Below, piece after piece: positions 161 to 39,113 of a stretch of DNA of 45,048 nt. The stretch lies in IMG/VR virus record IMGVR_UViG_3300045988_083207, one strand, 5' to 3'. The position numbers were made by a program, and so were the translations under genes. Positions within the stretch are counted from its first letter, which is position 1; every line of letters begins with the position of its first letter. The notes below the pieces were generated by a model, which saw nothing but the letters and a program-made list of their open reading frames with translations, was not told the DNA's origin and searched no databases. The stretch is from a virus.

Positions 161-201
161 GGGCGTCCCGGATTATCCGGGACGCCTGTTTTTGTCGTTT
201 T
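161..201 (+). terminator. Rho-independent terminator after the SLH gene
   Basis: Stem ggcgtcccgg / ccgggacgcc with loop attat, followed by tgtttttgtcgttttt. Confidence 0.7.
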
Positions 202-290
202 TCTGCAAAAAAGCGGAAAAGCCCCTTGCGGCGGGGGCGCGTTTCCGGTATACTGGATACACCAACTTTTTGAAGAAAAGGAGAAATGGC

Positions 291-1718
291 ATGAAGAAGA
301 AACTTCTGAGCATCCTGCTCGTGCTGAGCCTGATGCTCGCGCTCGTCCCGGCGGCCTTCGCGGCGGACGCCGCCAGCGGCACCTGCGGCGCCGAGGGCGA
401 CGGCAGCAACGTCACCTGGACGCTGGACGAGTCCGGCACGCTGACCATCTCCGGCACCGGCGCGATGTGCGACTACGACGATGCCTGGAGCGGCAAGCCC
501 TGGGGAAGCAGCGACGCCGTTCAGGCCGTTGTCGTGCAGGAGGGCGTCACCCACATCGGCGCATACGCCTTCTTTCGCTACACGAATTGCAGGTCCGTCA
601 GTTTGCCGTCCTCGCTGGTCTCGATCGGTGAGAGCGCCTTCGCTATGAACGACGGTCTCCGGGAGCTCGATCTGCCGGAGGGCCTCCGGGAGCTGGGCAA
701 CATGGCGTTCCTGTCCTGCGACGCGCTCAAGCGGCTCACAGTTCCGAGCACGCTCGAGACGATCGGCGATAACACGTTCAACTCGTGCGAGGCGCTCAGC
801 GATGTGACGCTTTCCGAGGGCCTGACTACCGTCGGCAACCTTATGTTCTCCAATGCCAAACGGCTCAAGACCATCACGCTGCCGCAGAGCCTGACGACCA
901 TCGGCGTGGCCGCCTTCCAGTATACCGGGCTGCAGGAGCTGCACATCCCCGCAAGCGTCACGACGATCAATGCCAAGGCATTCCAGGGCGCGGCGCTCAC
1001 TTCGGTCGAGGTGCCCGGAACGGTCAAAACGCTCCTCGACGGCGCTTTTATGGGCTGCGATGACCTGCGCAGCTTCACACTGGGCGAGGGCTCCCGGAGC
1101 GTGCCGGGCGGTCTGCTGGCCCGCTGCCGCTCGCTCGAGCGCGTCACGCTGCCGCAGTCGCTCGAGACGATCGGTGATTCCGCATTTTATGAGTGCCCGC
1201 GTCTGGGCGAGATCAACATTCCGGACAGTGTGACTACCTTGGGCAACAGCTGCTTCAGCGGCACGAGCCTGCGCGAGCTTACGCTTCCGGCGGGCACGAC
1301 TACGATCGGCAACCGCGCGTTTGCCGAGATGCGCTATCTGCGCGAGCTGCACATCCCGGACACGGTCACGTCGCTTGGCATCGGCGTGTTTGCCGGCGAC
1401 AGCGCACTCACAACGGCCACGCTGCCGTCCGGCCTGACCGAGATCCCCCAGAGTACATTTTCCTTCTGCGAGAAGCTCACGTCCATTGAGATTCCCGACG
1501 GCGTTACGAGCATCGGCAAGGAGGCCTTTCAAAAATGCACGAGCCTGACGGCCGTCGACCTGCCGGATGCCGTCACGTCCATCGGCGATCGGGCATTTCT
1601 GAACTGCCAGTCGCTCACGGAGCTGCGGCTGCCCGCTGAGCTGGAGACACTCGGCGACCGTGCGCTTTGCGATGAAAAAGTCAAGGATAAATTACAAAAT
1701 ATCAAGAAAAATATTTGA
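291..1718 (+). CDS. BspA-like LRR surface protein, 5' portion. Host-encoded to 1672, then a 15-codon prophage-derived tail.
   Basis: RBS aaaaggaga 7 nt upstream of ATG 291. Signal peptide MKKKLLSILLVLSLMLALVPAAFA. About 22-residue LRR_5-type repeats (LxxVxIPxSVTxIGxxAFxxC). The repeat pattern breaks at LGDRALC, after which AT-rich DEKVKDKLQNIKKNI* follows. Confidence 0.85.
   Translation: MKKKLLSILLVLSLMLALVPAAFAADAASGTCGAEGDGSNVTWTLDESGTLTISGTGAMCDYDDAWSGKPWGSSDAVQAVVVQEGVTHIGAYAFFRYTNCRSVSLPSSLVSIGESAFAMNDGLRELDLPEGLRELGNMAFLSCDALKRLTVPSTLETIGDNTFNSCEALSDVTLSEGLTTVGNLMFSNAKRLKTITLPQSLTTIGVAAFQYTGLQELHIPASVTTINAKAFQGAALTSVEVPGTVKTLLDGAFMGCDDLRSFTLGEGSRSVPGGLLARCRSLERVTLPQSLETIGDSAFYECPRLGEINIPDSVTTLGNSCFSGTSLRELTLPAGTTTIGNRAFAEMRYLRELHIPDTVTSLGIGVFAGDSALTTATLPSGLTEIPQSTFSFCEKLTSIEIPDGVTSIGKEAFQKCTSLTAVDLPDAVTSIGDRAFLNCQSLTELRLPAELETLGDRALCDEKVKDKLQNIKKNI
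1658..1672. repeat. Left copy of the 15-bp junction direct repeat ccgtgcgctttgcga (attL core or target-site duplication)
   Basis: Identical 15-mer at 43893..43907. Flanks diverge sharply on both sides. Joining host flanks restores the LRR reading frame. Confidence 0.85.
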
Positions 1719-1850: not shown

Positions 1851-2885
1851 TCAGGCGGCCACGTACTCCTCGAAAACTGCCCCGGCGGATCTCCACCCCA
1901 GGATCCGGCGTGGATAGTTGTTCATCCACTCCGCCGCCCGTTCCACCTCCGCCTCCGTCACCTGATCGAAGTTTGTTCCCTTTGGGAACCACCGCCGCAG
2001 GATCCGGTTCATGTTCTCGTTGCTCCCGCGCTCTTGCGGGGAATACGGGTGGCAGTAGTAAATTTTCGTTCGTGGTCCTTTCAGCCTGTACGATCTCTGG
2101 AGGCCGGCGCAGTCCATAAATTCGCTGCCGTTGTCCACGGTGATGGTGCGGAACACTTCCCGGAACCGCTTTCCCATTCGCCGCTCCAGCCTGTTCAGCG
2201 CCCGGACCACGCTTTCCGCCGTATGATCCGGGACCCGGATCACCAGTCCCCACCTCGTCAGCCGTTCGGTCAGCACCAGCAGGGCCGCCTTTGACCCCAC
2301 CGGCCCCATAATGCTGTCCATTTCCCAGTGGCCGAACGTATTTCGCGCCCGGACCTCCGGCGGTCTGTCCTCGATGGTTTCCCCTGGCGCCTCTTTCGCC
2401 CGTTCCCGCTGTTCATATTCCCGCCGGCGCTCCCCTTTATAAAGCAGGTGTTCTTCTGTCAATTCCAGAAACACGTCCCCCCGGTAAATATACGAATAAA
2501 GGGTGGTTTCGCAGATGTGGGTTTCAAACTCCAGGCCGGCCGCCTCGATGTAGGCCAGCACCGCCCCGGGGGAATAGTGTTCTTCTATGATCTTTCGCTC
2601 CACGAAGTTGGCAAAAGCATGATCCCGGCCCAGTTTGATCTCCGGCCCCTTTGCTCTCAAATTCTCCTGGTATTTCCGCTCCGCCACTTCCGCGCAGTAT
2701 TCCTCCCGGAATATGTACCCCTCTTTTTGCTGGAGGCATAGGCCCCGTTTAATCTCGTTGTAAATTGTCTTGACGCATACCCCCAGCATTTCCGCGATCT
2801 CCGCAGGCTTTCCCCCGGTTTTCAGCGCCCCCTCGATTTTCAGGCGGTCCTCCCACTTTAGGTGGTGATACCCTTTGTAGTTCAT
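1851..2885 (-). CDS. IS30-family DDE transposase (candidate phage integrase)
   Basis: 344 aa. N-terminal HTH (KPAEIAEMLGVCVKTIYNEIKRG). DDE triad contexts GHWEMD, TVDNGSEF and SPQERGSNENMN. RBS aaggggga. Confidence 0.85.
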   Translation of the reverse strand: MNYKGYHHLKWEDRLKIEGALKTGGKPAEIAEMLGVCVKTIYNEIKRGLCLQQKEGYIFREEYCAEVAERKYQENLRAKGPEIKLGRDHAFANFVERKIIEEHYSPGAVLAYIEAAGLEFETHICETTLYSYIYRGDVFLELTEEHLLYKGERRREYEQRERAKEAPGETIEDRPPEVRARNTFGHWEMDSIMGPVGSKAALLVLTERLTRWGLVIRVPDHTAESVVRALNRLERRMGKRFREVFRTITVDNGSEFMDCAGLQRSYRLKGPRTKIYYCHPYSPQERGSNENMNRILRRWFPKGTNFDQVTEAEVERAAEWMNNYPRRILGWRSAGAVFEEYVAA

Positions 2886-2903
2886 ATTTTCCCCCTTTGC
2901 GCG

Positions 2904-2936
2904 AAAAAACGGCCGGCGTGAAAATCACGCCGGCCG
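2904..2936 (-). terminator. Rho-independent terminator between the XRE gene and the transposase gene
   Basis: On the minus strand: stem cggccggcgtg / cacgccggccg, followed by tttttt. Confidence 0.7.
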
Positions 2937-2939
2937 CTC

Positions 2940-3182
2940 TCATTCTTTCCCTAATATCCATAGCACGGAAACGCCCAGGACCTCCGCTATTGTGACCACC
3001 TCATAATCCGTGACCAGGTGATCACCCATTTCCATCCGGCTGATCACGTCCCTCTCCATCGGGACGCCCTCCAGTTGGAGCAGGCGGGCCAGGTCCGTTT
3101 GTGACAGCCGTTTTTCCAGCCTCGCCATGCGTATGCGGTCCCCGCAGATATTCTTTTTCCCGTGATATAGAAATTTCTTCAC
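2940..3182 (-). CDS. XRE-family (Cro/CI-type) HTH regulator
   Basis: 80 aa. IRMARLEKRLSQTDLARLLQLEGVPMERDVISRMEMG. GTG start with GGAGG RBS. Confidence 0.8.
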   Translation of the reverse strand: MKKFLYHGKKNICGDRIRMARLEKRLSQTDLARLLQLEGVPMERDVISRMEMGDHLVTDYEVVTIAEVLGVSVLWILGKE

Positions 3183-3250
3183 CGCCGCGCCTCCGTGTGG
3201 GAATAATCGGACTTTTTCTTAACTTTAGCACGGGATCGCTTGAAAACCCG

Positions 3251-3266
3251 TGGTAATAGTCTGAAC
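3251..3266 (+). promoter_or_regulatory. GTGGTAATAGTCTGAA motif copy a (extended -10-like TGnTAATAG, or operator)
   Basis: 16/16 identical to 22566..22581. Lies between the RHH and XRE genes and points antisense into the RHH gene. Confidence 0.45.
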
Positions 3267-3332
3267 GAAGAAAAATTGATTATTCCAGCGGGGCGCCCTC
3301 GGGCGGCCCCTACACCGGCGCGTGTGGTGCCG

Positions 3333-3542
3333 TTACTCTTTCCCCAGGATTTCGTCCGCCAGTCGGTCCATGGCCATTTCCATGAACTCGTTAAGGCTAT
3401 GTCCTGCGGCGGCTGCGGCCGCTTTGTATCGGTCCTTTTTTCCTCGTTTTACATACGGGGAAAGTCGATCATAGTTCTTTTCGTTGAAAGCCCGCTTGTA
3501 GTCCGTGGCGCTCATTCCGCCCTCTTTTTTTGGTCTGCCCAT
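3333..3542 (-). CDS. Ribbon-helix-helix (Arc/CopG-like) DNA-binding protein
   Basis: MGRPKKEGG...YDRLSPYVKRGKKDRYKAAAAAAGHSLNEFMEMAMDRLADE. ATG 3542 has a GAGGTG RBS. Confidence 0.65.
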   Translation of the reverse strand: MGRPKKEGGMSATDYKRAFNEKNYDRLSPYVKRGKKDRYKAAAAAAGHSLNEFMEMAMDRLADEILGKE

Positions 3543-3560
3543 ACTTATCACCTCGCCCTC

Positions 3561-8941: not shown

Positions 8942-9067
8942 AAATCCGGGGGCCACGGCCCAGGAATTGTTCGCGTTGTTGTTGTTGGCGCTGCCGTTGG
9001 TGTTGACAAGGCAGAAATTGTTGGTGTTCGTCGCATTGACGGACCGGCACCACGCATTGGCCGCCGT
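8942..9067 (-). repeat. DGR template repeat (TR)
   Basis: 126 nt collinear, without indels, with 9678..9803 and 39518..39643. Its coding-sense strand is rich in AAC/AAT codons (NATNTNNFCLVNTNGSANNNNANNS). Confidence 0.85.
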
Positions 9068-9128
9068 CAAAGGGTCCGCCGCCCTGCCACTCGGCACGTT
9101 TTCAGAGATACACCCAATGGCCAGTGAT

Positions 9129-9587
9129 TTATTTTCTTTTTCGGTCGCTCTCCAGAACGGCCCGGATCAGTTCGTTTTCCCTGTCGATCTTTTCGGCCAG
9201 GTTTTGCGCCATATCATCCAGTTTTTTGGTGGCCTCCGCCGCCGGTATGCTTTTCCCGTCCGGCTTTGTAAAGCACCCCTGCGGGTTCAATGCCAGGATG
9301 GTATAACAATGCCCCAGGCGCACGTCCAGGGCCATGAGCGCGGCCCTGGCCTCCAGCAGGTGCCCTTTCCGCAGGCCCATGTTCGGCTCTCCCTTTGGAA
9401 AAATACTGTTCGCCTTTTCCGTCTGATCGATCACTTCCCCGGCCAGCGCGGCCACCGGCTCCGCCAGCAGGCGGGCATACCTTGCGGAAAGCCTGGTCAG
9501 AAATGCCACGGTTTCCACGTAGATCTCATTGGCCAGGTTTACGTACTCCGCCTTGCTGGTTGATCTCTTGCTTTTCAGTACGGACAC
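9129..9587 (-). CDS. avd: Avd-like accessory variability determinant (helical bundle)
   Basis: 152 aa, predicted helical. GTG start with AAAGGAGGGG RBS. Canonical position between the target gene and the TR. Confidence 0.55.
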   Translation of the reverse strand: MSVLKSKRSTSKAEYVNLANEIYVETVAFLTRLSARYARLLAEPVAALAGEVIDQTEKANSIFPKGEPNMGLRKGHLLEARAALMALDVRLGHCYTILALNPQGCFTKPDGKSIPAAEATKKLDDMAQNLAEKIDRENELIRAVLESDRKRK

Positions 9588-21749: not shown

Positions 21750-22007
21750 TTAGGTCTTTCCCTGTACGGCCTTATACAGGGTATAAATGCGGCCGGATTT
21801 CTGGCGCAACTGGCGCATGGCCTCCGGCAGATCCTCCAGGGGCACGATCAGGGCGCTCAGGACTTTGTTTTTCTCGGTCGCCGCTTTCAGCCCTTCCGGG
21901 ATCCCGTTGTTGTAGGCGGTGAACTGCCTGGCCACGCCCTTGATGGGCGGGCCGCAGTACACCACCGTGCCGGCGGCCTCCGCCGCCTTTCTGGTTCTCT
22001 TGGTCAT
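21750..22007 (-). CDS. Hypothetical protein (85 aa)
   Basis: ORF coupled to its upstream neighbour. Confidence 0.45.
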   Translation of the reverse strand: MTKRTRKAAEAAGTVVYCGPPIKGVARQFTAYNNGIPEGLKAATEKNKVLSALIVPLEDLPEAMRQLRQKSGRIYTLYKAVQGKT

Positions 22008-22630
22008 GTATATGGCACCTCCTGGCGCACCGCTGGCGCCTCAAATTTCAGCGACATGGCCCCGAAATAGTAGGGGTGTGTGTCGTCCTGCTGTGTGACC
22101 CATTTGATCGGATACATGATGGACCACGGGCCGCCTACCGCGCCCCCGCTGTCCGGTTTGATCCTCACTACGGGATTTTTGGCGTATCGCCCGCAAATCT
22201 CCTGGATGATGTGCAGCACGTCCCGGTATCCCTGCCGGTTCGGGTTTTTGTCGTAGACGCACACCACCAGGATCATGTCGATTTCCTGGGGGCTGTTGGC
22301 GTCCTGTATGTTCCCCTCGTTGGTCCGCACGATGATGTACGGTTCCGGGATCTCCTCGGTCCGGTCCTCGGTTTCGTCCATTCCCTCGATGATCGGGAGG
22401 TCCTGGGGGTAAACCCGGATCGGCCGCTTGTCGCCGGCGGAACTCTGGAGGGTCTGCCCCTCGAACAGGTCCGCCAGGTCCGCCACAATGGCGTCCTGCA
22501 AAAATTCCGGTGTCGTGGTGTTCGCCTCCTTGACTTTTCGCCGCTTTTCGTGGTAAATTCTTGTTGTGGTAATAGTCTGAAAATCGTGGTAATACACGGC
22601 ACGAAAGGGTGTGTTAAAATGCCGGTACAA
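22004..22630 (-). CDS. Putative neck/tail-completion protein (start uncertain)
   Basis: The C-terminal roughly 160 aa look protein-like. No convincing RBS/start was found, and the 5' 60 nt overlap promoter-like motifs of the opposite strand. Confidence 0.4.
   Translation of the reverse strand: MYRHFNTPFRAVYYHDFQTITTTRIYHEKRRKVKEANTTTPEFLQDAIVADLADLFEGQTLQSSAGDKRPIRVYPQDLPIIEGMDETEDRTEEIPEPYIIVRTNEGNIQDANSPQEIDMILVVCVYDKNPNRQGYRDVLHIIQEICGRYAKNPVVRIKPDSGGAVGGPWSIMYPIKWVTQQDDTHPYYFGAMSLKFEAPAVRQEVPYT
22566..22581 (+). promoter_or_regulatory. GTGGTAATAGTCTGAA motif copy c
   Basis: Identical 16-mer to 3251..3266. Upstream of the plus-strand island. Confidence 0.45.
22585..22595 (+). promoter_or_regulatory. 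Motif copy d, CGTGGTAATAC (extended -10-like), 24 nt before ATG 22619
   Basis: TGgTAATAC, followed by gaaaggg RBS and ATG. Confidence 0.45.
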
Positions 22631-23494
22631 CTCGATCTTTGGTCCATTTCTCCTCCCGTTTCTTCCCGCCCCGCTGGCAGCGCGAACGATCCAGACGCTT
22701 TTGGGTGCTGTTCTCGGTATCGTTCCTGTTCCGCTGCCGGGAAGTGCTTAATTCCTGGCCTTGACTATTCCGCCCATTGTTCTTATCGAAAGAACCTGGA
22801 GGCCGGCCGGATTTTCTACGGGAAAAACTCTTGTGGGTTCTCTGCGGACCGCTATTTTTCGCTATGCTCTGCCGTCGGCGCTCTGCCGGACGGTGCCCGG
22901 CTGGCGCTTGACGGCCTGGTGATTGACTTCTGCGAATACCGGCGCGGTGCCTCCTCGGTCGTCGTCCGCTCCGTATTCCTTTCTGATCTGGCAGGGCTTT
23001 CTCTTTTCGATTTTTCCCCGCTTGGCCCCATGTTTCCGCGTCTGTGCGGCTATCGGCAGTTGCTTTCCTCCGTGATGGAAAACCCCTCCTATGGCCCAAT
23101 GTTTCGCCGTGCGCAGGAGGCCGGGTCCGGCTCAAAACCCGGCCCGAAAACGAAAGAATTTCTGTCCGATTGGTTGAACCGTGCCGGTGTTTCCTTGCGG
23201 GATGAACTTTCTGCACCGTATCTCTTGGCGTCCATACGGTCGGATGCTCTTTCATATCTGGAAGAACTGTACCATGATACTTTGGCCGCGTCCTACGATG
23301 GCCGCATATACGCTCGTTCTCCTCTTGCGGAGGATGGTTTTTTGTCCAGCGCGGACTACGAAAGGGAGGAGCTGCGCCGGATCTCTCTTTCCCGTGGGTA
23401 TTCCCCGGAGGAAAAGGCCAGCCTTTCCGCCCCGCTCCTGGAGGCCCAGGCCGCCCGATCCCGCTCCGCAAATAAGGGGGGTGGTTCTGTATGA
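22619..23494 (+). CDS. Uncharacterised Cys-rich protein (plus-strand island gene 1)
   Basis: 292 aa from ATG 22619. N-terminal DAFGCCSRYRSCSAAGKCLIPGLDYSAHCSYRKNLEAGRIFYGK. The long ORF upstream of 22619 is antisense overlap. Confidence 0.55.
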   Translation: MPVQLDLWSISPPVSSRPAGSANDPDAFGCCSRYRSCSAAGKCLIPGLDYSAHCSYRKNLEAGRIFYGKNSCGFSADRYFSLCSAVGALPDGARLALDGLVIDFCEYRRGASSVVVRSVFLSDLAGLSLFDFSPLGPMFPRLCGYRQLLSSVMENPSYGPMFRRAQEAGSGSKPGPKTKEFLSDWLNRAGVSLRDELSAPYLLASIRSDALSYLEELYHDTLAASYDGRIYARSPLAEDGFLSSADYEREELRRISLSRGYSPEEKASLSAPLLEAQAARSRSANKGGGSV

Positions 23495-23928
23495 CCTTTG
23501 GGCCTTTTGAGATCCCGGAGGAGGAACTGCTGGAGGCTTGCAAGCGCCTGGAACGCGCCCAGGCGATTTCCCCGGAGGCCGTCCTTTCTTTCGATGTTTC
23601 GGCCCGCTCGATGGCTATTCAGGGGTCAGACGGGTTCCCTTATCACGTCCGCCTTGGTGGGTGCGAATGTGTAGACTACGAACGCCGGAAACTTCCGTGC
23701 AAGCATATTTACCGCCTGGCTCTTGAACTTGGCTGTGAATTTCCAGAGGCCCCGGCGTTTGATCCTTACCTTGCGGCCGAATACGATATTTCGGAGGACT
23801 TGGACCGTTTGCGTCTGCGCTGGGTTTCCGGCCAACTTACCCTGGCGGCATACTCGAAATGTGTTGACGCGCTCCGCAGTTCCGCCGCAAAGGCAAAGCG
23901 CCGGCGCGGCCGCCCCAAAAAACAATGA
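23491..23928 (+). CDS. SWIM zinc-finger protein (plus-strand island gene 2)
   Basis: 145 aa. CxC-x10-CxH motif: LGGCECVDYERRKLPCKHIYRL. ATGA overlap with gene 1. Basic C-terminal tail. Confidence 0.7.
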   Translation: MTFGPFEIPEEELLEACKRLERAQAISPEAVLSFDVSARSMAIQGSDGFPYHVRLGGCECVDYERRKLPCKHIYRLALELGCEFPEAPAFDPYLAAEYDISEDLDRLRLRWVSGQLTLAAYSKCVDALRSSAAKAKRRRGRPKKQ

Positions 23929-23929
23929 T

Positions 23930-24577
23930 TTACGCGCTTTGTCGGATTGCCTTGGCGATCCGCTTGTCGATCTCCTGGTCCAGGACCATGTAAAGCATGG
24001 CCCTGGCCTTTTCTTGTACCTCCTCGTTTGACATCATACTGGGGACGGAAGGGCCGGTCAGAACCTTGATCCTGGTCATATCCGGCCATTGGCCACGGTG
24101 CGGCATACCGTACTTTTTTACGCGGTCCGCCGCGCCGCCTACCGTGTAAGACTGCCCCACCATGCGCTGCACAATCGCCTTGTGGGTGCTGCTGAACTGC
24201 GCCGCAAACGCAGGCGCCCCTCCGCGCTCCAGTAGTTTCATTCCGCCAGACTGCAGGACTTTGGCTTTCACGCCTTGGTCCGTCTGGTTTGTCAGGAAGT
24301 CGATCAGATCATTTACCGGGCCTTTGGACCGGATCACCGCCTCGATGTTCCCCGGCTTTGCGGTCTGCAACCTCGGCGCGCCCTTGCTTTTGTCTTTCAG
24401 CACGTCGTCCTTGATGGTGTAGGTTCCTGCCACGTCTTTGGTGATCTGCTTTCGGACCTTCCGGGCCGCCGCATTGATGGACAGTCGGAGAACGTCCGGG
24501 GCCTGGAGCGCCAGGCGTTCCAGGCGTTGGCCGATCCGTAGGATTTCGGCCTGGGTGTCAACTTCAATGTGGATCAT
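23930..24577 (-). CDS. Putative head-tail connector/tail-completion protein
   Basis: 215 aa in head-tail joining position. Confidence 0.4.
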   Translation of the reverse strand: MIHIEVDTQAEILRIGQRLERLALQAPDVLRLSINAAARKVRKQITKDVAGTYTIKDDVLKDKSKGAPRLQTAKPGNIEAVIRSKGPVNDLIDFLTNQTDQGVKAKVLQSGGMKLLERGGAPAFAAQFSSTHKAIVQRMVGQSYTVGGAADRVKKYGMPHRGQWPDMTRIKVLTGPSVPSMMSNEEVQEKARAMLYMVLDQEIDKRIAKAIRQSA

Positions 24578-24909
24578 GTGCGGATCGCCTCGATTTCGAT
24601 TGACAGGACGCCGGCGGCCTCGTCCGCCTGTACTACGCGATACTCCCGGCCGTCCAGGTTCAGGGCCTTGCCAGACATAGGCCGCCCGCCGTAGTCCGAT
24701 TTACTCACATACAGCAGTCGCCGCGTCCTGTACGTCCCATCTGTGTGGACGCCGCCCCTGGCCGCGTCCCGCTCCAGCAGCGCGTCGTCGTCCACCACCG
24801 CGTCCATTTTCCGGCCGTCGATTGTGTGGGCGTCTGCAAATTCCTGGGCGTTCAGGAATACGCCGTGAATGTCCGCCGCCACGCAGTCCTTGAAAGAGGG
24901 GGCGCCCAT
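24574..24909 (-). CDS. Putative head-tail adaptor
   Basis: 111 aa, translationally coupled. Confidence 0.4.
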   Translation of the reverse strand: MGAPSFKDCVAADIHGVFLNAQEFADAHTIDGRKMDAVVDDDALLERDAARGGVHTDGTYRTRRLLYVSKSDYGGRPMSGKALNLDGREYRVVQADEAAGVLSIEIEAIRT

Positions 24910-25415
24910 TACTGGGCACCCCCGTTTTCATTCTTTGCGGGGGCGTAGACCTCCGCCGCCGTGATCACAGCGATCAGGTCCGCCTTTGTCTTTGCCTTGG
25001 AGATCTCCAGCCCCATGTCGGTGGCCATTCTCTCCAGGTCGGCCTTTTTCAGGTCCTCCAGGTCCTTGGGGTCCAGGTGCCCAGCGATCATCCCTCCGTC
25101 CTGGGTGCCCTGGGTGTTCTGTGCGCCGTCCTGGTCGCCCTTGGCACCGTCCTGGCCGTCCTGGGTGTTCTGTGTGCCGTCCTGGTCGCCCTTGGCACCG
25201 TCCTGGCCGTCCTGGTCGCCCTTGGCACCGTCCTGGCCGTCCTGGGTGTTCTTGGCTACGTCCGGCGCGTTGTCCTGGCTCTCTCCGCACCGTTCCGCGC
25301 TGTCATTCTCCAGCCATGCGTCCACCATTCTGGCGTCGTCGCCGGGCAGGTTGTCCCCGGCCTGATACATACGGCCCCGGTATAGGATCGGCCGCTTTGC
25401 AATCAGTCCTTTCAT
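24909..25415 (-). CDS. Repeat-containing protein with a C-terminal HeH/Rho-N-like motif
   Basis: 168 aa. (QDGQDGAKGD)n low-complexity core. LEDLKKADLERMATDMGLEISKAKTKADLIAVI. Confidence 0.55.
   Translation of the reverse strand: MKGLIAKRPILYRGRMYQAGDNLPGDDARMVDAWLENDSAERCGESQDNAPDVAKNTQDGQDGAKGDQDGQDGAKGDQDGTQNTQDGQDGAKGDQDGAQNTQGTQDGGMIAGHLDPKDLEDLKKADLERMATDMGLEISKAKTKADLIAVITAAEVYAPAKNENGGAQ
25128..25238. repeat. Exact 30-bp unit gtcctggtcgcccttggcaccgtcctggcc, three copies
   Basis: Copies at 25128..25157, 25179..25208 and 25209..25238. Confidence 0.9.
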
Positions 25416-35490: not shown

Positions 35491-35674
35491 GGCGCTTTCC
35501 TCCGTTCATCATCAGCAGTCTATCCCTTACAAGGTCGTCAATCACACGGCCCCGCTCCCGGTATCCCATTTCTTTGGCCAGCCTTTCCAGGTTGTAGTCC
35601 GTTTGCGCCGTTACTACCTCGGAGATCCGGCGCAGGTTCTTTTTGTTCCATTTCCCGGCCTGCCTGTTTTTCAT
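35471..35674 (-). CDS. Small hypothetical protein (67 aa)
   Basis: ATG 35674 overlaps the methylase stop (ATGA). Confidence 0.45.
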   Translation of the reverse strand: MKNRQAGKWNKKNLRRISEVVTAQTDYNLERLAKEMGYRERGRVIDDLVRDRLLMMNGGKRHERNEN

Positions 35675-37596
35675 ACCGCCACCGCCTTTTCCAGTTCCTC
35701 CATGGTGCTGATCTCCTGGCTGCACCACTCCGGCAGGTTTGCCCGCACCAGGGCGGTGGCGAACGGCGGCGGGACCGCATTTCCGCACCTGGCCACCTGC
35801 TTGGTTTTTGGGTACACCGTCCCGGTATAGTCCCGCTCGATCTTGTAGTCCACCGGGAACCCGTTGGCCATATACAATTCCCTGGGGGTCAGCATACGCA
35901 GGCCAATGTCTGCCAGGAAATAGGCCGCGCCGTCGATTTCAAACAGGATCACGTCCTCCGGCCCCAGTTTATACCCGCAGTAGGTGTTCAGCAGGTCCCG
36001 GATCTCCGGCCAGTGTCCCAGTTCCGCGCCCGGCTCCGCCCTTGCCACCACGGTGGTGACGACGCCGAAGTGTCCGCCGCCGGCCGTGATGGTCTGCACC
36101 GGCTCCGACATGGGGCCGCCCAGGTTTGTCCCCTTCATTTTGACCATGTGCGTGGCCACAAGGCCCTGGTGGTCGTTCCCCAGTGTCGTGGCCGCAGGCT
36201 CTCCGGCCCTTGTCCCAATGCTGGCGCCGTGGTACTCCGTTATGTGTGCCGCCAGGACGGCCTCCCGGTCTTTCGCCGTCACCGTATGGAGCGGATCCCC
36301 AATTCCTTGGCCGTGTTGGTCGCTCCCGTAGTATTTGACCAGGCTGGCCGCCGCCAGTCCGTAGCGGTTGGAGGCATCAATGGTCATAAGCGGGTCCGCC
36401 ACGCCCTGGCCCCGTACCCTCTCCGTCTGCTCCGTGTGGTATTGGATCAGCGCCGGCGCCACCACGCACTCCTCCGCCTTGGAAACTTGGGTGTGCGTCG
36501 GCTCCGTGATTTTCCGCCCCCGCTCACCGCCGCCGGTTTGCCCTATGGCCGCCAGCGTCGGGGTGATCACCATTTGATGGCCGCCCGCTCCGCTGCTTGT
36601 GATCGTGTTCACCGGCTCCGTGATCCCTGTCCCGGTCGCGTTCTCGTTGTTGTGCATGGTCAGCGGCGCCATGACGGGGGAGGCGACGCCATACCCATGC
36701 TTTGCTGTCACCGTCTGGAGCGGCGCGGCGGCGTCCTGCCCCCGGAAGTCGCCCGCGTGGTTTACCACCACCAGGAACGGCTCCGGGTTCTTTATGGCGA
36801 ACTTGTCCACGCCCCTGATCACCCGCCGCATGGTGTTGGGCCGGAGTGGCCGCTTGGCGGAAAGGCCGTATTTCTCCCGGATCTGCTCCCGCGTGTCAAA
36901 AATGGAGGGGCAGGGGAGGGACCAGTCTATGATTTCCGCCGCGCTCCGCCACGGCTTTTTCCTGCCCTCCAGCGCCTCCAGGCTGTCCGCCGGCGCGTGT
37001 GTCGACTCCGTCCACACAATGGGCGCACCGTCGCACCTGGCCACCAGGAAGAACCTTTTTCGCGTTGTGGGCGCTCCGTAGTCCGCCGCCACCAGTTCCC
37101 GCCATTCTACGGCATACCCCAGGGCCTGCAGTTGGGAAAGCCACTTGTGGAAGGTCTGTCCGGCTTTTGATTTCACGGGTCGCCCCCGGCGCACCGGCCC
37201 CCATGTCTGGAACTCCTCCACGTTCTCCAGGATGATCACCCGGGGCCGCACGGTTCCGGCCCACCGCAGTACGATCCAGGCCAGGCCCCTTATGTTCTTG
37301 TCCACCGGCTTTCCGCCCTTTGCTTTGGAAAAATGTTTGCAGTCGGGAGAGAACCACGCCAGCCCCACCGGGCGCCCCTTTGCCACCTCGCACGGGTCCA
37401 CGTCCCACACGCTTGCCTGGTAATGCTCCGTAAACGGGTGGTTCGTCTTGTGCATGAGTATGGCGTCCGGGTCGTGGTTGATGGCTATGGTCACAGGCCG
37501 CCCCGTCGCCAGTTCGATCCCCGTAGACGCCCCGCCGCCGCCGGCGAAGTTGTCCACGATGATCTCCTCCAGGAGGTTGATCTGCGCCCCGCTCAT
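35671..37596 (-). CDS. DNA (cytosine-5) methyltransferase with seven tandem TRD-like modules
   Basis: 641 aa. Motif I DNFAGGGG, IV SPDCKHFS, VI ENVEEF, VIII APTTRKRFF, IX RMLTPRELYMANGFP, X CGNAVPP. Repeats lie at aa 289-520. Confidence 0.85.
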   Translation of the reverse strand: MSGAQINLLEEIIVDNFAGGGGASTGIELATGRPVTIAINHDPDAILMHKTNHPFTEHYQASVWDVDPCEVAKGRPVGLAWFSPDCKHFSKAKGGKPVDKNIRGLAWIVLRWAGTVRPRVIILENVEEFQTWGPVRRGRPVKSKAGQTFHKWLSQLQALGYAVEWRELVAADYGAPTTRKRFFLVARCDGAPIVWTESTHAPADSLEALEGRKKPWRSAAEIIDWSLPCPSIFDTREQIREKYGLSAKRPLRPNTMRRVIRGVDKFAIKNPEPFLVVVNHAGDFRGQDAAAPLQTVTAKHGYGVASPVMAPLTMHNNENATGTGITEPVNTITSSGAGGHQMVITPTLAAIGQTGGGERGRKITEPTHTQVSKAEECVVAPALIQYHTEQTERVRGQGVADPLMTIDASNRYGLAAASLVKYYGSDQHGQGIGDPLHTVTAKDREAVLAAHITEYHGASIGTRAGEPAATTLGNDHQGLVATHMVKMKGTNLGGPMSEPVQTITAGGGHFGVVTTVVARAEPGAELGHWPEIRDLLNTYCGYKLGPEDVILFEIDGAAYFLADIGLRMLTPRELYMANGFPVDYKIERDYTGTVYPKTKQVARCGNAVPPPFATALVRANLPEWCSQEISTMEELEKAVAV

Positions 37597-37967
37597 TCCC
37601 TCGCCGCCTCTCTTAATGCGTTCACATACTTTTCCGCGTTTTCCTTTGCCCTGCAGTACGGGCAATTCGCGCCCCATTCTCTGCGGAAAACGCCCCCACA
37701 TTTTCCACACACCAGGGTGTCGTCCACTTCTCTGGCCAATCGTTCCATGAACCCCCGCAGTTCCATGGCCCAGTCTATGTATAACTCCCTGGCGTAAATG
37801 TTGGTTGCCAGTTCCTCCGCCATTTCCATGGCCTCCCGTCGCGGGACCAGGATCGCGTGGTTTTCTGTTGTCCGTTTTCCCGGTTCCACCCATCCGGCCC
37901 GCTTGGCTCTCATGTATTCCCGCGCTTTTGCGCGGGCCTCTTTGTAGCCTTTCAAAAAGTCTTTCAC
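37593..37967 (-). CDS. Hypothetical protein with a C-terminal zinc ribbon
   Basis: GTG 37967 after GGGAGGG. CGKCGG...CPYC. Confidence 0.45.
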   Translation of the reverse strand: MKDFLKGYKEARAKAREYMRAKRAGWVEPGKRTTENHAILVPRREAMEMAEELATNIYARELYIDWAMELRGFMERLAREVDDTLVCGKCGGVFRREWGANCPYCRAKENAEKYVNALREAARE

Positions 37968-38277: not shown

Positions 38278-39027
38278 CTATTCGTTGAAAACCTCGAAAT
38301 ATTCCTGGTACGGGTAGCCCGTCATTTCGTGCCACCCGGCCCTGCAGGTTGCCCCGTCGTCGAACTTATACAGCACCGCGCCCTTTCGCGCTTTCGGCTC
38401 CTTCCTCCAGGAGGAGGAGGAAACCACCTTGTAGGTGATCACCGGCTTGTCCATGTTTTGTGTCTTGCTGTACCGCTTTCCCCGTTTCCCGATCTCCCGG
38501 TACTTCTCCATGGTGGACCGGCTTTCCTTCATCAGGTAGGCCGCCAGTTTGGCGTGGTTCCCCCGGCGGTCCAGCGGCTTGAAACTGATACCCCCGCCGC
38601 CCCTGGGGACTTCCTCCCAGGCGTCCCCGATGATCTCCGGGTCCATCCGGCTTATGATCACGTGAATGTGAGGGTTCGTCATGCGCTTGGTTTCTATCAC
38701 CACCACGGCCTTGTACTTGATCCCCTTTTTCCTGCAGGCTTTCCGCAGGTTGGCCAGGAATGTGGCCTTGTCCTCCAGGATCTCCTCAAAGGTCGTGTCC
38801 TTGGCGTAGTAGTGCAGGACGGCGTGGAGATCCCGGCGGTCAAAGTTGGCGTTCAGATCCCAGCGCAGGTGTTCCTCCGCCACCCGCTCGTTGATCCGGG
38901 CTTGCTTTTCCGTGGTCGTCCCTTTGTTGGGGCCGCGCTGGACCCCCTTGGTGTGGACCCGGAAGGATTGCATTTTCCTATGTTCGACGGTCCGGCCAGC
39001 CTGCACCATCCTGTGTACGTATGGCAT
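38278..39027 (-). CDS. Putative HUH-type rolling-circle replication initiator
   Basis: 249 aa. YKAVVVIETKRMTNPHIHVIISR (HUH-like). AAGGAGGGG RBS at ATG 39027. Confidence 0.4.
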   Translation of the reverse strand: MPYVHRMVQAGRTVEHRKMQSFRVHTKGVQRGPNKGTTTEKQARINERVAEEHLRWDLNANFDRRDLHAVLHYYAKDTTFEEILEDKATFLANLRKACRKKGIKYKAVVVIETKRMTNPHIHVIISRMDPEIIGDAWEEVPRGGGGISFKPLDRRGNHAKLAAYLMKESRSTMEKYREIGKRGKRYSKTQNMDKPVITYKVVSSSSWRKEPKARKGAVLYKFDDGATCRAGWHEMTGYPYQEYFEVFNE

Positions 39028-39113
39028 GGTGCCCCCTCCTTTTCGGGTGCTGGTCACTTTACTAATGCCTCTTACCGGCGCTTACGGGGCCATGGCCCCG
39101 CTGATTTTTCCCG

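What the first reader, a model, noticed from the sequence alone, without database searches (positions are those of the whole stretch)
22619..23928. Opposite-strand two-gene island (Cys-rich protein plus SWIM zinc finger) between the neck and head genes
These two translationally coupled plus-strand genes sit in an otherwise uninterrupted 40-kb minus-strand transcription unit. They lie exactly between the tail-completion and head-tail connector genes, with their own promoter-like motifs. This is classic moron architecture.

Gene 1 (292 aa) has an N-terminal cysteine cluster (GCCSRYRSCSAAGKC...HC) that I cannot assign to a named family. Gene 2 is a 145-aa SWIM zinc-finger protein with a basic tail. 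Such cargo is often a lysogen-expressed defence, exclusion or anti-defence function. I do not know this pairing as a described system.
Basis: inference. Interest (0 to 1): 0.65.

Follow-up and report, generated by a model that had tools for sequence, protein, structure and literature searches.

The report
Prophage cargo pair: Cys-rich plus SWIM
Two real, co-evolving genes of unknown function sit backwards in a swappable cargo slot of a gut-Clostridia prophage; they belong to a large undescribed family that other prophages carry between repressor and integrase, so they are probably a lysogen-expressed DNA-directed immunity module, though this is untested.

Summary
Two overlapping plus-strand genes (291 aa and 145 aa) lie inside the minus-strand neck module of a contractile-tail prophage.

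The moron reading is supported:
- Sister phages with 90-97% identical structural proteins carry other cargo in the same slot, under the same conserved promoter. One alternative is a different SWIM protein, the other a lipoprotein.
- The island's GC3 is 0.60, against 0.75-0.85 in its neighbours.

The two genes form one unit. Nine lineages keep a SWIM gene next to the gene 1 homologue, and at least 12 proteins fuse the two. A BRCT domain can replace SWIM.

Gene 1 starts with an undescribed 45-residue five-cysteine module, found in about 960 protein clusters. In most relatives this module pairs with a DEDDh exonuclease-BRCT gene, and 18 of 26 viral loci have an integrase just downstream, 12 with a repressor-like gene upstream. 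The window version has no nuclease.

No Pfam, PHROG, NCBIfam, PADLOC, PDB or BFVD match explains gene 1, although its structure model is confident.

My best reading is a lysogen-expressed, metal-dependent, DNA-directed immunity module (confidence about 0.45). The function is inferred, not shown.

The parts
22530..22559 (+). Sigma-A-type promoter: -35 TTGACT (22530-22535), 18-nt spacer, TG-extended -10 TAAATT (22554-22559)
   Evidence: Consensus scan. The -35 box CTTGACTT is invariant in six loci whose proteins are 38-47% identical. The region is conserved upstream of three different cargoes. Function is not shown experimentally.
22550..22593 (+). Three direct GTGGTAAW repeats (22550, 22566, 22586). 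The middle one is part of the 16-mer GTGGTAATAGTCTGAA (22566-22581), around the predicted transcription start.
   Evidence: The window has 7 GTGGTAAW matches against 1.4 expected by chance. The 16-mer occurs exactly twice in the window, against 0.05 expected.
3250..3265 (+). Second, identical copy of the 16-mer GTGGTAATAGTCTGAA, about 70 nt upstream of the 80-aa HTH repressor gene (2940-3182, minus strand)
   Evidence: This site is conserved in relatives L118 and L119 although the bases next to it vary. The repressor assignment comes from PHROG repressor families at about 1e-7.
22603..22609 (+). Ribosome-binding site GAAAGGG, upstream of the gene 1 ATG
   Evidence: Read from the sequence. A purine-rich AGG block is conserved in the alignment.
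22619..23494 (+). Gene 1: a 291-aa soluble protein made of a disordered leader, a five-cysteine module, an all-new mainly helical body and a long C-terminal helix
   Evidence: pLDDT 88.7, pTM 0.80. dN/dS is 0.16. There is no transmembrane segment.
22694..22828 (+). Five-cysteine module (residues 26-70): FGCC-x5-CS-x4-C-x10-C-YRKNLEAGRIFYGKN, a probable Zn or Fe-S site
   Evidence: C30, C31, C37, S38, C43, C54, Y56, R57, L60, F66 and G68 are invariant in 34 sequences. This is the only region shared with the short protein family (hhalign probability 99.8, E 1.7e-27). Metal binding is inferred.
23491..23928 (+). Gene 2: a 145-aa SWIM zinc-finger protein, overlapping gene 1 as ATGA
   Evidence: pLDDT 86.6.
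23662..23730 (+). SWIM zinc finger, C58-x-C60-x9-C70-x-H72
   Evidence: Pfam PF04434, residues 58-80, 21.3 bits against a cut-off of 19.6. The four ligand residues are invariant.
23899..23925 (+). Basic tail RRRGRPKKQ with an AT-hook-like GRP core
   Evidence: Read from the sequence. GRP[KRP]K is kept in most close homologues. No profile hit, so the assignment is tentative.
24095..24114 (+). Terminator-like hairpin followed by a T-run, 170 nt past the gene 2 stop and inside the antisense Neck1 gene. It is a possible end of the island transcript.
   Evidence: Pattern scan only. The local fold is not exceptional (z = -1.6). Weak.
22004..22534 (-). Flanking neck/virion structural gene (phrog_2581), which bounds the slot on the tail side
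   Evidence: It is 89-96% identical in most sister phages (80% in L084) whatever the cargo.
23930..24577 (-). Flanking tail-completion/Neck1 gene (phrog_27), which bounds the slot on the head side
   Evidence: It is 71-99% identical in sister phages.

Best explanation
The island is an exchangeable cargo cassette (a moron) in the neck module of a temperate contractile-tail phage of gut Clostridia. It is transcribed from its own host-type promoter, against the late operon.

The two products work as one cytoplasmic, metal-dependent, nucleic-acid-directed unit.
- Gene 1 contributes a terminal five-cysteine module (Zn or Fe-S) and a novel helical body.
- Gene 2 contributes a SWIM zinc finger and an AT-hook-like tail. 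It acts as the targeting or adaptor subunit, a role filled by a BRCT domain in other versions.

The pair is the nuclease-free branch of a wider family. In most members of that family the same cysteine module is partnered with a DEDDh 3'-5' exonuclease-BRCT protein.

I propose that the pair is made in the lysogen and protects it from incoming or replicating foreign DNA. The proposed mechanism is binding to that DNA and blocking it, or marking it for a host nuclease, rather than cutting it.

Shown:
- the genes are real;
- the slot is variable;
- the promoter is conserved;
- the pair is linked and sometimes fused;
- the domain network is as described;
- relatives sit in lysogeny modules.

Inferred:
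- metal binding;
- DNA binding;
- physical complex formation;
- expression in the lysogen of this phage;
- the immunity function.
For: Cassette status:
- The same slot holds three different cargoes in sister phages.
- The slot promoter is conserved whatever the cargo.
- GC3 is 0.60, against 0.75-0.85 in the neighbours.
- L003 has an 11/12 consensus promoter and a canonical terminator around the pair.
- One alternative cargo under the same promoter is a lipoprotein (hydropathy 2.16, lipobox LSAC). That is the class of the lysogen-expressed exclusion protein Ltp (PMC3952083).

One functional unit:
- A SWIM gene lies next to the gene 1 homologue in 9 separate lineages, down to 27-31% identity: window/L079, L001, L003, L012, L022, L023, L090, L091 and L092.
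- Eight SWIM-gene 1 fusions were found and four in the gene 1-SWIM order.
- One SWIM-DEDDh-Cys fusion was found (L072).
- BRCT replaces SWIM in P0018/L015 and in P0188.

Link to DNA:
- 35 of 51 genome loci have a DEDDh-BRCT gene directly next to the Cys-module gene on the same strand.
- DEDDh-BRCT-Cys fusions exist.
- Gene 2 has an AT-hook-like tail.
- The gene 1 profile gives a weak match to a POU-type HTH (E 0.015).

Expression in lysogens, in relatives:
- In 18 of 26 IMG/VR loci an integrase follows on the same strand, and in 12 an HTH gene precedes.
- The gap after the CI-like gene is 15-55 nt in six loci (L001, L010, L092, L099, L109, L111), so co-transcription is likely.
- L001's repressor has HTH_3 plus Peptidase_S24.

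The bstA gene downstream of cI, transcribed from the cI promoter, is a precedent (PMC7067206). Prophage DEDDh exonucleases with auxiliary domains do defend against phage (bioRxiv 10.64898/2026.06.30.735675).
Against:
- No experiment or homologue with a known function supports any activity.
- There are no PADLOC hits.
- The window pair has no nuclease, and the window encodes no DEDDh homologue. The analogy with the exonuclease versions may therefore not carry over.
- The 16-mer shared with the repressor's control region sits at about +1 to +16 of the island promoter. If the phage repressor binds there, the island could be off in lysogens.
- One relative (L089) has gene 1 alone, with neither SWIM nor BRCT.
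- One member of the module family lies in a conjugative element (L007), where anti-defence genes are also common.
Confidence: 0.45

Rival explanations
1. The pair is an accessory regulator of the lysis-lysogeny decision or of host genes. In this reading it is a DNA-binding complex whose cysteine cluster senses redox state or metal, and which feeds into the repressor's control region.
For: - Gene 2 has an AT-hook-like tail and gene 1 gives a weak HTH-like match.
- Gene 1 has five invariant cysteines, in strict anaerobes.
- Family members lie next to repressor genes.
- An identical 16-mer lies in the island promoter and upstream of the repressor gene, and both sites are conserved in relatives.
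Against: - Sister phages replace the pair with a lipoprotein under the same promoter and keep similar GTGGTAAT-type repeats (the 16-mer itself is not exact there). The binder is therefore unlikely to be the cargo, and the pair is not needed for the switch.
- Most of the family is coupled to a 3'-5' exonuclease, which a transcription factor does not need.
- The family also occurs in a conjugative element.
Confidence: 0.2
2. The pair is an early-expressed counter-defence or DNA-protection factor. In this reading it is made on infection or induction and shields phage DNA, or blocks a host nuclease or repair pathway.
For: - The possible operator lies over the transcription start, which could keep the island off in lysogens.
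- SWIM and BRCT are protein-binding and DNA-end-binding domains in repair pathways (general knowledge, from memory).
- A family member sits in a conjugative element near a RadC gene.
Against: - In many prophages the homologues lie directly downstream of the CI-like repressor on its strand, with gaps of 15-55 nt, and upstream of the integrase. That is the lysogenic transcription unit.
- The alternative cargo in the same slot is a lipoprotein of the exclusion type.
Confidence: 0.15
3. The pair is an accessory factor for integration or excision that works with the phage recombinase.
For: An integrase or recombinase follows on the same strand in 18 of 26 IMG/VR loci. SWIM domains also occur in MuDR-type transposases (general knowledge, from memory).
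Against: - The neighbouring recombinases belong to three unrelated classes: tyrosine, serine and DDE/rve.
- In the window the pair is 20 kb from the rve integrase.
- Sister phages lack the pair.
- The exonuclease partnership is not explained.
Confidence: 0.07
4. The pair is a virion or assembly component, or a chance ORF pair with no function.
For: Only its position inside the structural module supports this.
Against: - The pair is on the opposite strand and is replaced by unrelated cargo in sister phages.
- Homologues lie mostly in lysogeny modules.
- Purifying selection, deep conservation and confident fold models rule out chance ORFs.
Confidence: 0.02

Closest known systems
Morons of lambdoid and HK97-like phages (Juhala et al. 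2000; from memory) and antisense accessory loci of Salmonella prophages (PMC7067206)
   Same: A self-contained transcription unit inserted between conserved late genes, antisense to them. It has its own host-type promoter and a composition different from its neighbours, and it is variable between sister phages.
   Different: Here the promoter belongs to the slot and is kept while the cargo ORFs are exchanged. The window copy has no intergenic terminator. Expression in the lysogen has not been measured.
Superinfection-exclusion genes in the lysogeny modules of Firmicutes phages (Ltp of TP-J34, PMC3952083; Sie2009 of lactococcal phages, from memory)
   Same: Most relatives of the pair occupy the position between the repressor and integrase genes on the lysogenic strand. 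The lipoprotein that replaces the pair in sister phages is of the Ltp class.
   Different: Ltp and Sie2009 are membrane or surface proteins that block DNA injection. The pair is soluble and cytoplasmic (no transmembrane segment), so any exclusion must act after DNA entry.
BstA, the prophage abortive-infection protein encoded downstream of cI (position and transcription: PMC7067206; function: Owen et al. 2021, from memory)
   Same: It is encoded next to the repressor and co-transcribed with it. It has no enzymatic domain and acts on phage DNA replication through DNA binding.
   Different: There is no sequence or domain relationship. BstA is a single protein with a KilA-N domain, whereas this unit has two proteins with cysteine-module and SWIM domains.
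Prophage DEDDh exonuclease defence proteins with auxiliary domains (TONDOs, bioRxiv 10.64898/2026.06.30.735675) and the PADLOC candidate PDC-S48
   Same: Most carriers of the five-cysteine module are fused or adjacent to a DEDDh exonuclease in prophages. P0077 matches the PADLOC DEDDh model (4e-37) and PDC-S48 (7e-22) through that domain.
   Different: The window pair has no exonuclease. The cysteine module, the gene 1 body and the SWIM partner are not part of those described systems.
SWIM zinc-finger family PF04434 (SNF2 ATPases, MuDR transposases, Shu2/SWS1; Makarova et al. 2002, from memory)
   Same: Gene 2 has the CxCxnCxH signature and passes the Pfam cut-off.
   Different: It is a small stand-alone prophage protein with a conserved N-terminal FGPW[DE] region and an AT-hook-like tail. 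It is partnered with an undescribed cysteine-module protein. None of the known SWIM contexts applies.

Membership tests
Moron (phage accessory transcription unit) | Present or absent, or replaced, between genes that are conserved in related phages | tested here: met
   Nine IMG/VR relatives carry three different cargoes between the same Neck1 and phrog_2581 genes. No relative with an empty slot was seen.
Moron (phage accessory transcription unit) | Own promoter, independent of the late operon | tested here: met
   TTGACT-18-TAAATT with a TG extension. The -35 box is invariant in distant relatives. L003 matches the consensus at 11 of 12 positions. This is a computational result only.
Moron (phage accessory transcription unit) | Own terminator | tested here: inconclusive
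   L003 has a canonical terminator straight after the SWIM gene. In the window there is only a weak hairpin 170 nt downstream, inside Neck1.
Moron (phage accessory transcription unit) | Base composition different from the surrounding genes | tested here: met
   GC3 is 0.60 and 0.61, against 0.75-0.85 in six flanking structural genes.
Moron (phage accessory transcription unit) | Expressed in the lysogen | not testable with these tools
The only support is indirect: relatives are operonic with CI-like repressors.
SWIM zinc finger (PF04434) | CxCxnCxH signature and a profile score above the gathering threshold | tested here: met
   21.3 bits against 19.6. C58, C60, C70 and H72 are invariant.
Known anti-phage defence systems (PADLOC-DB v2) | Profile match to a component of a catalogued system | tested here: not met
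   No hits for either protein at E <= 1.
Ltp/Sie-type exclusion proteins | Signal peptide with lipobox, or a membrane anchor | tested here: not met
   The maximum 19-residue Kyte-Doolittle hydropathy is 1.47 for gene 1 and 0.88 for gene 2. The lipoprotein cargo of L085 scores 2.16.
DEDDh exonuclease defence proteins (TONDO / PDC-S48) | DEDDh exonuclease domain | tested here: not met
   No RNase_T hit in either protein. The window has no DEDDh-BRCT homologue anywhere. The domain is present only in other carriers of the cysteine module.
AT-hook DNA-binding motif | R-G-R-P core flanked by basic residues | tested here: inconclusive
   RRRGRPKKQ is at the C-terminus, and GRP[KRP]K is kept in most close homologues. 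Pfam reported no AT_hook hit.
Fe-S or zinc-binding domain (five-cysteine module) | Bound metal coordinated by the invariant cysteines | not testable with these tools
   Five cysteines are invariant in 34 and in 27 sequences. Model coordinates cannot be inspected, and there is no sequence match to a solved structure.
PD-(D/E)XK / FAN1-like nuclease | Significant fold match and a catalytic alpha-beta core | tested here: not met
   The best Foldseek hits are to FAN1 but are weak (E 0.1-0.8, TM 0.22-0.28). The model is almost all helical, with three short strands.

The most novel reading that the evidence does not exclude
The five-cysteine module defines a large, undescribed family of immunity systems on mobile elements of Clostridia, with about 960 clusters at 50% identity. 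The module, possibly an Fe-S cluster, would act as a sensor or docking domain. SWIM or BRCT would serve as interchangeable targeting adaptors. The effector would be either a DEDDh exonuclease or, as in this window, a nuclease-free novel-fold protein that blocks foreign DNA by binding it. The shared 16-mer would tie expression of the slot to the phage's own lysogeny switch.
Probability: 0.3. Interest if true: 0.78.

Novelty: new variant of a known kind. Interest (0 to 1): 0.6.

Why it matters
Prophages of strictly anaerobic gut Clostridia are abundant, but their accessory genes are almost unstudied. This window gives a clean entry point: a fixed promoter slot whose cargo changes between near-identical phages.

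One of those cargoes belongs to a family of roughly a thousand protein clusters that no domain, defence or structure database describes. If the family is an immunity system, three things follow:
- It would add a new sensor or adaptor logic, with a cysteine module plus either SWIM or BRCT, and with or without an exonuclease.
- It would assign a first bacterial function to small SWIM proteins.
- It would help explain phage-host dynamics in the gut.

The result is useful even if the function turns out to be different. The conserved five-cysteine module and the confident but unmatched fold of gene 1 are worth a structure and a metal analysis.

Tried and rejected
Searches that found nothing:
- Pfam, PHROGs, NCBIfam and PADLOC gave nothing for gene 1, and only SWIM for gene 2.
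- Foldseek of both confident models against PDB, and of gene 1 against BFVD, gave no hit at E <= 0.001. The FAN1 hits for gene 1 (E 0.1-0.8, TM about 0.25) were rejected as too weak and at odds with the all-helical model.
- Profile searches of PDB sequences gave only a weak POU/Pit-1 match for gene 1 (E 0.015), which I keep as a lead and nothing more. The SWIM protein and the short cysteine-module family gave nothing.
- tblastn of gene 1 and of the cysteine module against GenBank phages and PLSDB plasmids found no match.
- Five literature searches on SWIM or DEDDh/BRCT and phage defence or prophages, and on morons, found no description of this pair.

Ideas considered and rejected:
- The minus-strand ORF 22614-23543 (309 aa) overlaps the island. 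I rejected it as a gene because it is an Arg/Gly/Pro-rich antisense artefact, and all conservation lies in the plus-strand frames.
- The plus-strand ORF 8967-9563 could have been a second island. I rejected it because the overlapping minus-strand ORF has a strong PHROG hit.
- I checked whether the 356-aa SWIM cargo of sister phages is a fusion of the pair. It is not. Only the SWIM-family N-terminal region is shared.
- I checked whether the window hides a DEDDh partner elsewhere. It does not.
Full report
**Observation.** Gene 1 runs from 22619 to 23494 and encodes 291 aa. It starts with ATG and has a GAAAGGG ribosome-binding site 10 nt upstream. Gene 2 runs from 23491 to 23928 and encodes 145 aa. 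The two overlap as ATGA.

The flanking genes are on the minus strand. On the tail side is a phrog_2581 virion structural gene, whose real start is probably the GTG at 22534. On the head side is a phrog_27 tail-completion/Neck1 gene. Sheath, tube, capsid, portal and terminase genes lie around them. Codon-position GC mapping and a PHROG check found no other supported plus-strand gene between about 4.3 and 43.8 kb.

The left end of the window carries an 80-aa HTH repressor and an IS30-like rve integrase, both on the minus strand. Beyond them lies a BspA-type LRR gene. The window is therefore a prophage of a contractile-tail phage.

**Are they genes?** Yes, on four grounds.
- Gene 1 has 165 homologues and gene 2 has 36 in the large protein collection.
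- A full HMMER pass over 1.84 billion representative proteins found 964 clusters at E <= 0.001 and 53 at E <= 1e-30 for gene 1.
- dN/dS for gene 1 against a 95% identical relative is 0.16.
- The AlphaFold2 models are confident, with pLDDT 88.7 and pTM 0.80 for gene 1, and pLDDT 86.6 for gene 2.

Neither protein has a membrane segment.

**Moron test.** I used the Neck1 protein to fetch sister phages from IMG/VR. Their sheath, capsid and slot-flanking proteins are mostly 90-97% identical to those of the window. The space between Neck1 and the phrog_2581 gene holds three different cargoes, always on the opposite strand:
- the same pair, in L079;
- a single 356-aa protein that shares only the SWIM-family N-terminal region, in L080-L083;
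- a 242-254-aa lipoprotein with a signal peptide, a lipobox and an internal duplication, in L084-L086.

More distant phages, with gene 1 proteins 38-47% identical, keep gene 1 at the same opposite-strand site. It is accompanied by SWIM in L003-L006, fused to BRCT in L015, and alone in L089.

GC3 of the two island genes is 0.60 and 0.61, against 0.75-0.85 for six neighbouring structural genes.

**Signals.** A promoter-like site lies 60 nt upstream of gene 1. It reads TTGACT, 18 nt, then TG-extended TAAATT, at 22530-22559. The -35 box CTTGACTT is invariant in six loci whose proteins are only 38-47% identical. L003 has TTGACT-17-TATAAT and a canonical GC-rich terminator straight after its SWIM gene. 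In the sister phages the whole region of about 100 nt is conserved whatever the cargo. The promoter therefore belongs to the slot, and the ORFs are exchanged behind it.

In the window the stop codons of gene 2 and Neck1 are 1 nt apart. The only terminator-like hairpin lies 170 nt further on, inside Neck1, and it is weak.

**An unexpected regulatory feature.** The promoter region contains three direct GTGGTAAW repeats. The window has 7 matches to this pattern against 1.4 expected. The 16-mer GTGGTAATAGTCTGAA occurs exactly twice in the window. One copy lies around the predicted transcription start of the island. The other lies about 70 nt upstream of the repressor gene, at 3250-3265. Both sites are conserved in relatives, although the bases next to the repressor-side copy vary.

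This suggests that the slot and the lysogeny switch share a regulator or a promoter element. I cannot tell which protein binds, or whether the effect is activation or repression.

**Anatomy of the family.** Gene 1 begins with a module of about 45 residues, FGCC-x5-CS-x4-C-x10-C-YRKNLEAGRIFYGKN, with five invariant cysteines. This module is the only part shared with a large set of other proteins (hhalign probability 99.8). In those proteins it almost always sits at the extreme C-terminus. The architectures seen are:
- a domain of about 120 aa plus the module, giving proteins of 165-200 aa;
- DEDDh exonuclease, BRCT, that domain, then the module;
- the same parts in permuted order;
- SWIM, DEDDh, that domain, then the module (L072).

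In 35 of 51 genome loci a DEDDh-BRCT gene lies directly next to the module gene on the same strand. All 57 genome hits are from Clostridia or other Bacillota, apart from two short MAG contigs labelled otherwise.

**The pair is one unit.** A SWIM gene lies next to the gene 1 homologue in nine separate lineages, down to 27-31% identity and in either gene order. Eight N-terminally extended homologues are SWIM-gene 1 fusions. Four further proteins are fused in the gene 1-SWIM order. Where SWIM is missing, a BRCT domain is fused instead, as in P0018/L015 and P0188. One locus has neither (L089).

SWIM and BRCT are therefore interchangeable in two independent architectures. This points to an equivalent adaptor or targeting role.

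**Where relatives live.** Most homologues lie in lysogeny modules.
- L001: CI-like repressor (HTH_3 plus Peptidase_S24), gene 1, SWIM, tyrosine integrase, then host mutS.
- L012: HTH/ImmA, gene 1, SWIM-like gene, integrase.
- L010: CI-like HTH, DEDDh-module fusion, integrase.
- L019: CI-like HTH, lipoprotein, double SWIM, serine recombinase.

In 18 of 26 IMG/VR loci a recombinase follows on the same strand, and in 12 an HTH gene precedes. The gap after the repressor gene is only 15-55 nt in six loci, which suggests co-transcription with the repressor.

This is the slot in which Firmicutes phages carry lysogen-expressed exclusion genes such as ltp (PMC3952083). It also resembles bstA, which lies downstream of cI (PMC7067206). 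One member of the module family lies in a conjugative element (L007).

**Structure and remote homology.** Neither model has a significant neighbour in PDB, and the gene 1 model has none in BFVD either. The FAN1 hits for gene 1 are weak. A profile search of PDB sequences gave only a weak POU-specific/Pit-1 match for gene 1 residues 118-203 (E 0.015). That is a lead for an HTH-like element, nothing more.

Gene 2 has the canonical CxC-x9-CxH SWIM signature and a C-terminal RRRGRPKKQ that reads as an AT-hook. Apart from the cysteines, the most conserved gene 1 residues are acidic: D239 is invariant, and E216 and D220 are conserved in at least 90% of sequences.

**Mechanism.** The following points are shown:
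- the island is an exchangeable cassette with a conserved host-type promoter;
- the two genes form one co-inherited and sometimes fused unit;
- the unit belongs to a domain network built around DNA enzymes and DNA-end or protein adaptors;
- relatives sit in the lysogenic transcription unit.

The rest is inferred. I propose that the proteins form a cytoplasmic complex. The cysteine module would bind Zn or an Fe-S cluster. SWIM plus the AT-hook-like tail would target DNA or a DNA-bound host factor. The lysogen would use the complex to interfere with incoming or replicating foreign DNA. Because this version and this phage have no nuclease, I propose blocking or marking rather than cutting.

My confidence that this is accessory cargo is about 0.9. 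My confidence that the two proteins act together is about 0.85. My confidence in the immunity function as stated is about 0.45.

**Rivals.**
- A lysis-lysogeny or host-gene regulator (0.2) fits the DNA-binding hints, the cysteines and the shared 16-mer. It does not fit the replaceability by a lipoprotein under the same promoter, or the exonuclease partnership.
- An early counter-defence factor (0.15) fits the position of the 16-mer over the transcription start and the conjugative-element case. It does not fit the operonic link to repressors.
- A recombination accessory factor (0.07) fits the integrase adjacency. It does not fit the three unrelated recombinase classes, or the 20-kb separation in the window.
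- A virion component or a chance ORF pair (0.02) is excluded as far as sequence data can exclude it.

**Comparison and novelty.** The architecture is a textbook moron, with the twist of a fixed promoter slot. The cargo is not in any catalogue I could search, and its closest analogues are functional, not homologous: BstA, Ltp/Sie and prophage DEDDh defence proteins. I rate it a new variant of a known kind. It is a prophage accessory and candidate immunity module built from an undescribed five-cysteine domain, a fold with no structural match, and a small SWIM adaptor.

**Limits.** I have no expression data, no multimer model and no access to model coordinates. The context counts come from metagenomic contigs that are partly redundant.

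Noticed in passing
window 3250-3265 and 22566-22581; also L118, L119, L116, L122-L124: The 16-mer GTGGTAATAGTCTGAA occurs exactly twice in the window. One copy is in the island's 5' region and one is upstream of the 80-aa HTH repressor gene. Both sites are conserved in relatives. It may be a shared operator or promoter element that links the slot to the lysogeny switch. The direction of any effect is unknown.
   Followed up: partly
window 22550-22593: Three direct GTGGTAAW repeats, spaced 16 and 20 nt apart, overlap the -10 box and the start of the island transcript. Similar copies are kept in sister phages with other cargo.
   Followed up: partly
L084 3275-4003 (-); L085 5678-6442 (-): The alternative cargo in the same slot is a lipoprotein of 242-254 aa. 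It has a signal peptide, the lipobox LSAC/LAAC and two internal repeats of about 80 aa (NYTAG.DFPAG.Y.IVAVSGGGNVSSSN). It has no Pfam family. It is a candidate surface exclusion protein.
   Followed up: partly
L080 5649-6719 (-), and the same in L081-L083: A third cargo in the slot is a 356-aa protein. Its N-terminal region belongs to the same SWIM family (FGPWD...CxC...CxH), and its C-terminal 230 aa are unrelated and unannotated.
   Followed up: partly
window 1851-3182 (-): The lysogeny genes are an 80-aa XRE-type HTH repressor and an IS30-like DDE integrase (HTH_38 plus rve), not a tyrosine or serine recombinase. Related rve genes lie next to solo SWIM proteins in L016-L018.
   Followed up: partly
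window 3320-3543 (-): A small minus-strand ORF (MGRPKKEGG..., about 74 aa) with a good ribosome-binding site lies upstream of the repressor. It also starts with a GRPKK motif. A GC-rich hairpin follows it at 3293-3313. It was read by eye from the sequence, and its coordinates were not checked by translation.
   Followed up: no
window 192-1718 (+): A BspA-type leucine-rich-repeat protein (PF13306, E 1e-114) lies at the left edge, next to the integrase. It could be a host gene or further prophage cargo.
   Followed up: no
window 24909-25415 (-): A 168-aa head-module protein has tandem acidic repeats (QDGQDGAKGDQDG...) between the decoration/cement-like gene and the head-tail attachment gene.
   Followed up: no
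L015 3611-4347 (+): A second opposite-strand two-ORF island (189 and 56 aa) lies between the tape-measure and tail-assembly-chaperone genes of a related phage. It may be another cargo slot.
   Followed up: no
L046 262-1389; also L037, L058, L063: The DEDDh-BRCT partner proteins carry a helical insert with repeated 'DG[IV]L..EE...L' motifs between the exonuclease and BRCT domains. From memory this resembles TerB-like repeats. It was not tested.
   Followed up: no
L016/L017 474-3241: A reverse transcriptase (RVT_1) followed by a DUF6273 protein lies next to the lysis genes of the prophage that carries a solo 252-aa SWIM protein. The arrangement looks like a diversity-generating retroelement.
   Followed up: no
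L114 3594-3609: The same 16-mer lies about 25 nt upstream of a ribosome-binding site and start codon in an apparently unrelated 96-kb viral contig. This suggests it could be a more general promoter or leader element in these hosts.
   Followed up: no
window 35671-37893 (-), 38278-39057 (-): The early region holds a large (740-aa) C5 cytosine methyltransferase and a rolling-circle Rep-like protein (PF23343).
   Followed up: no
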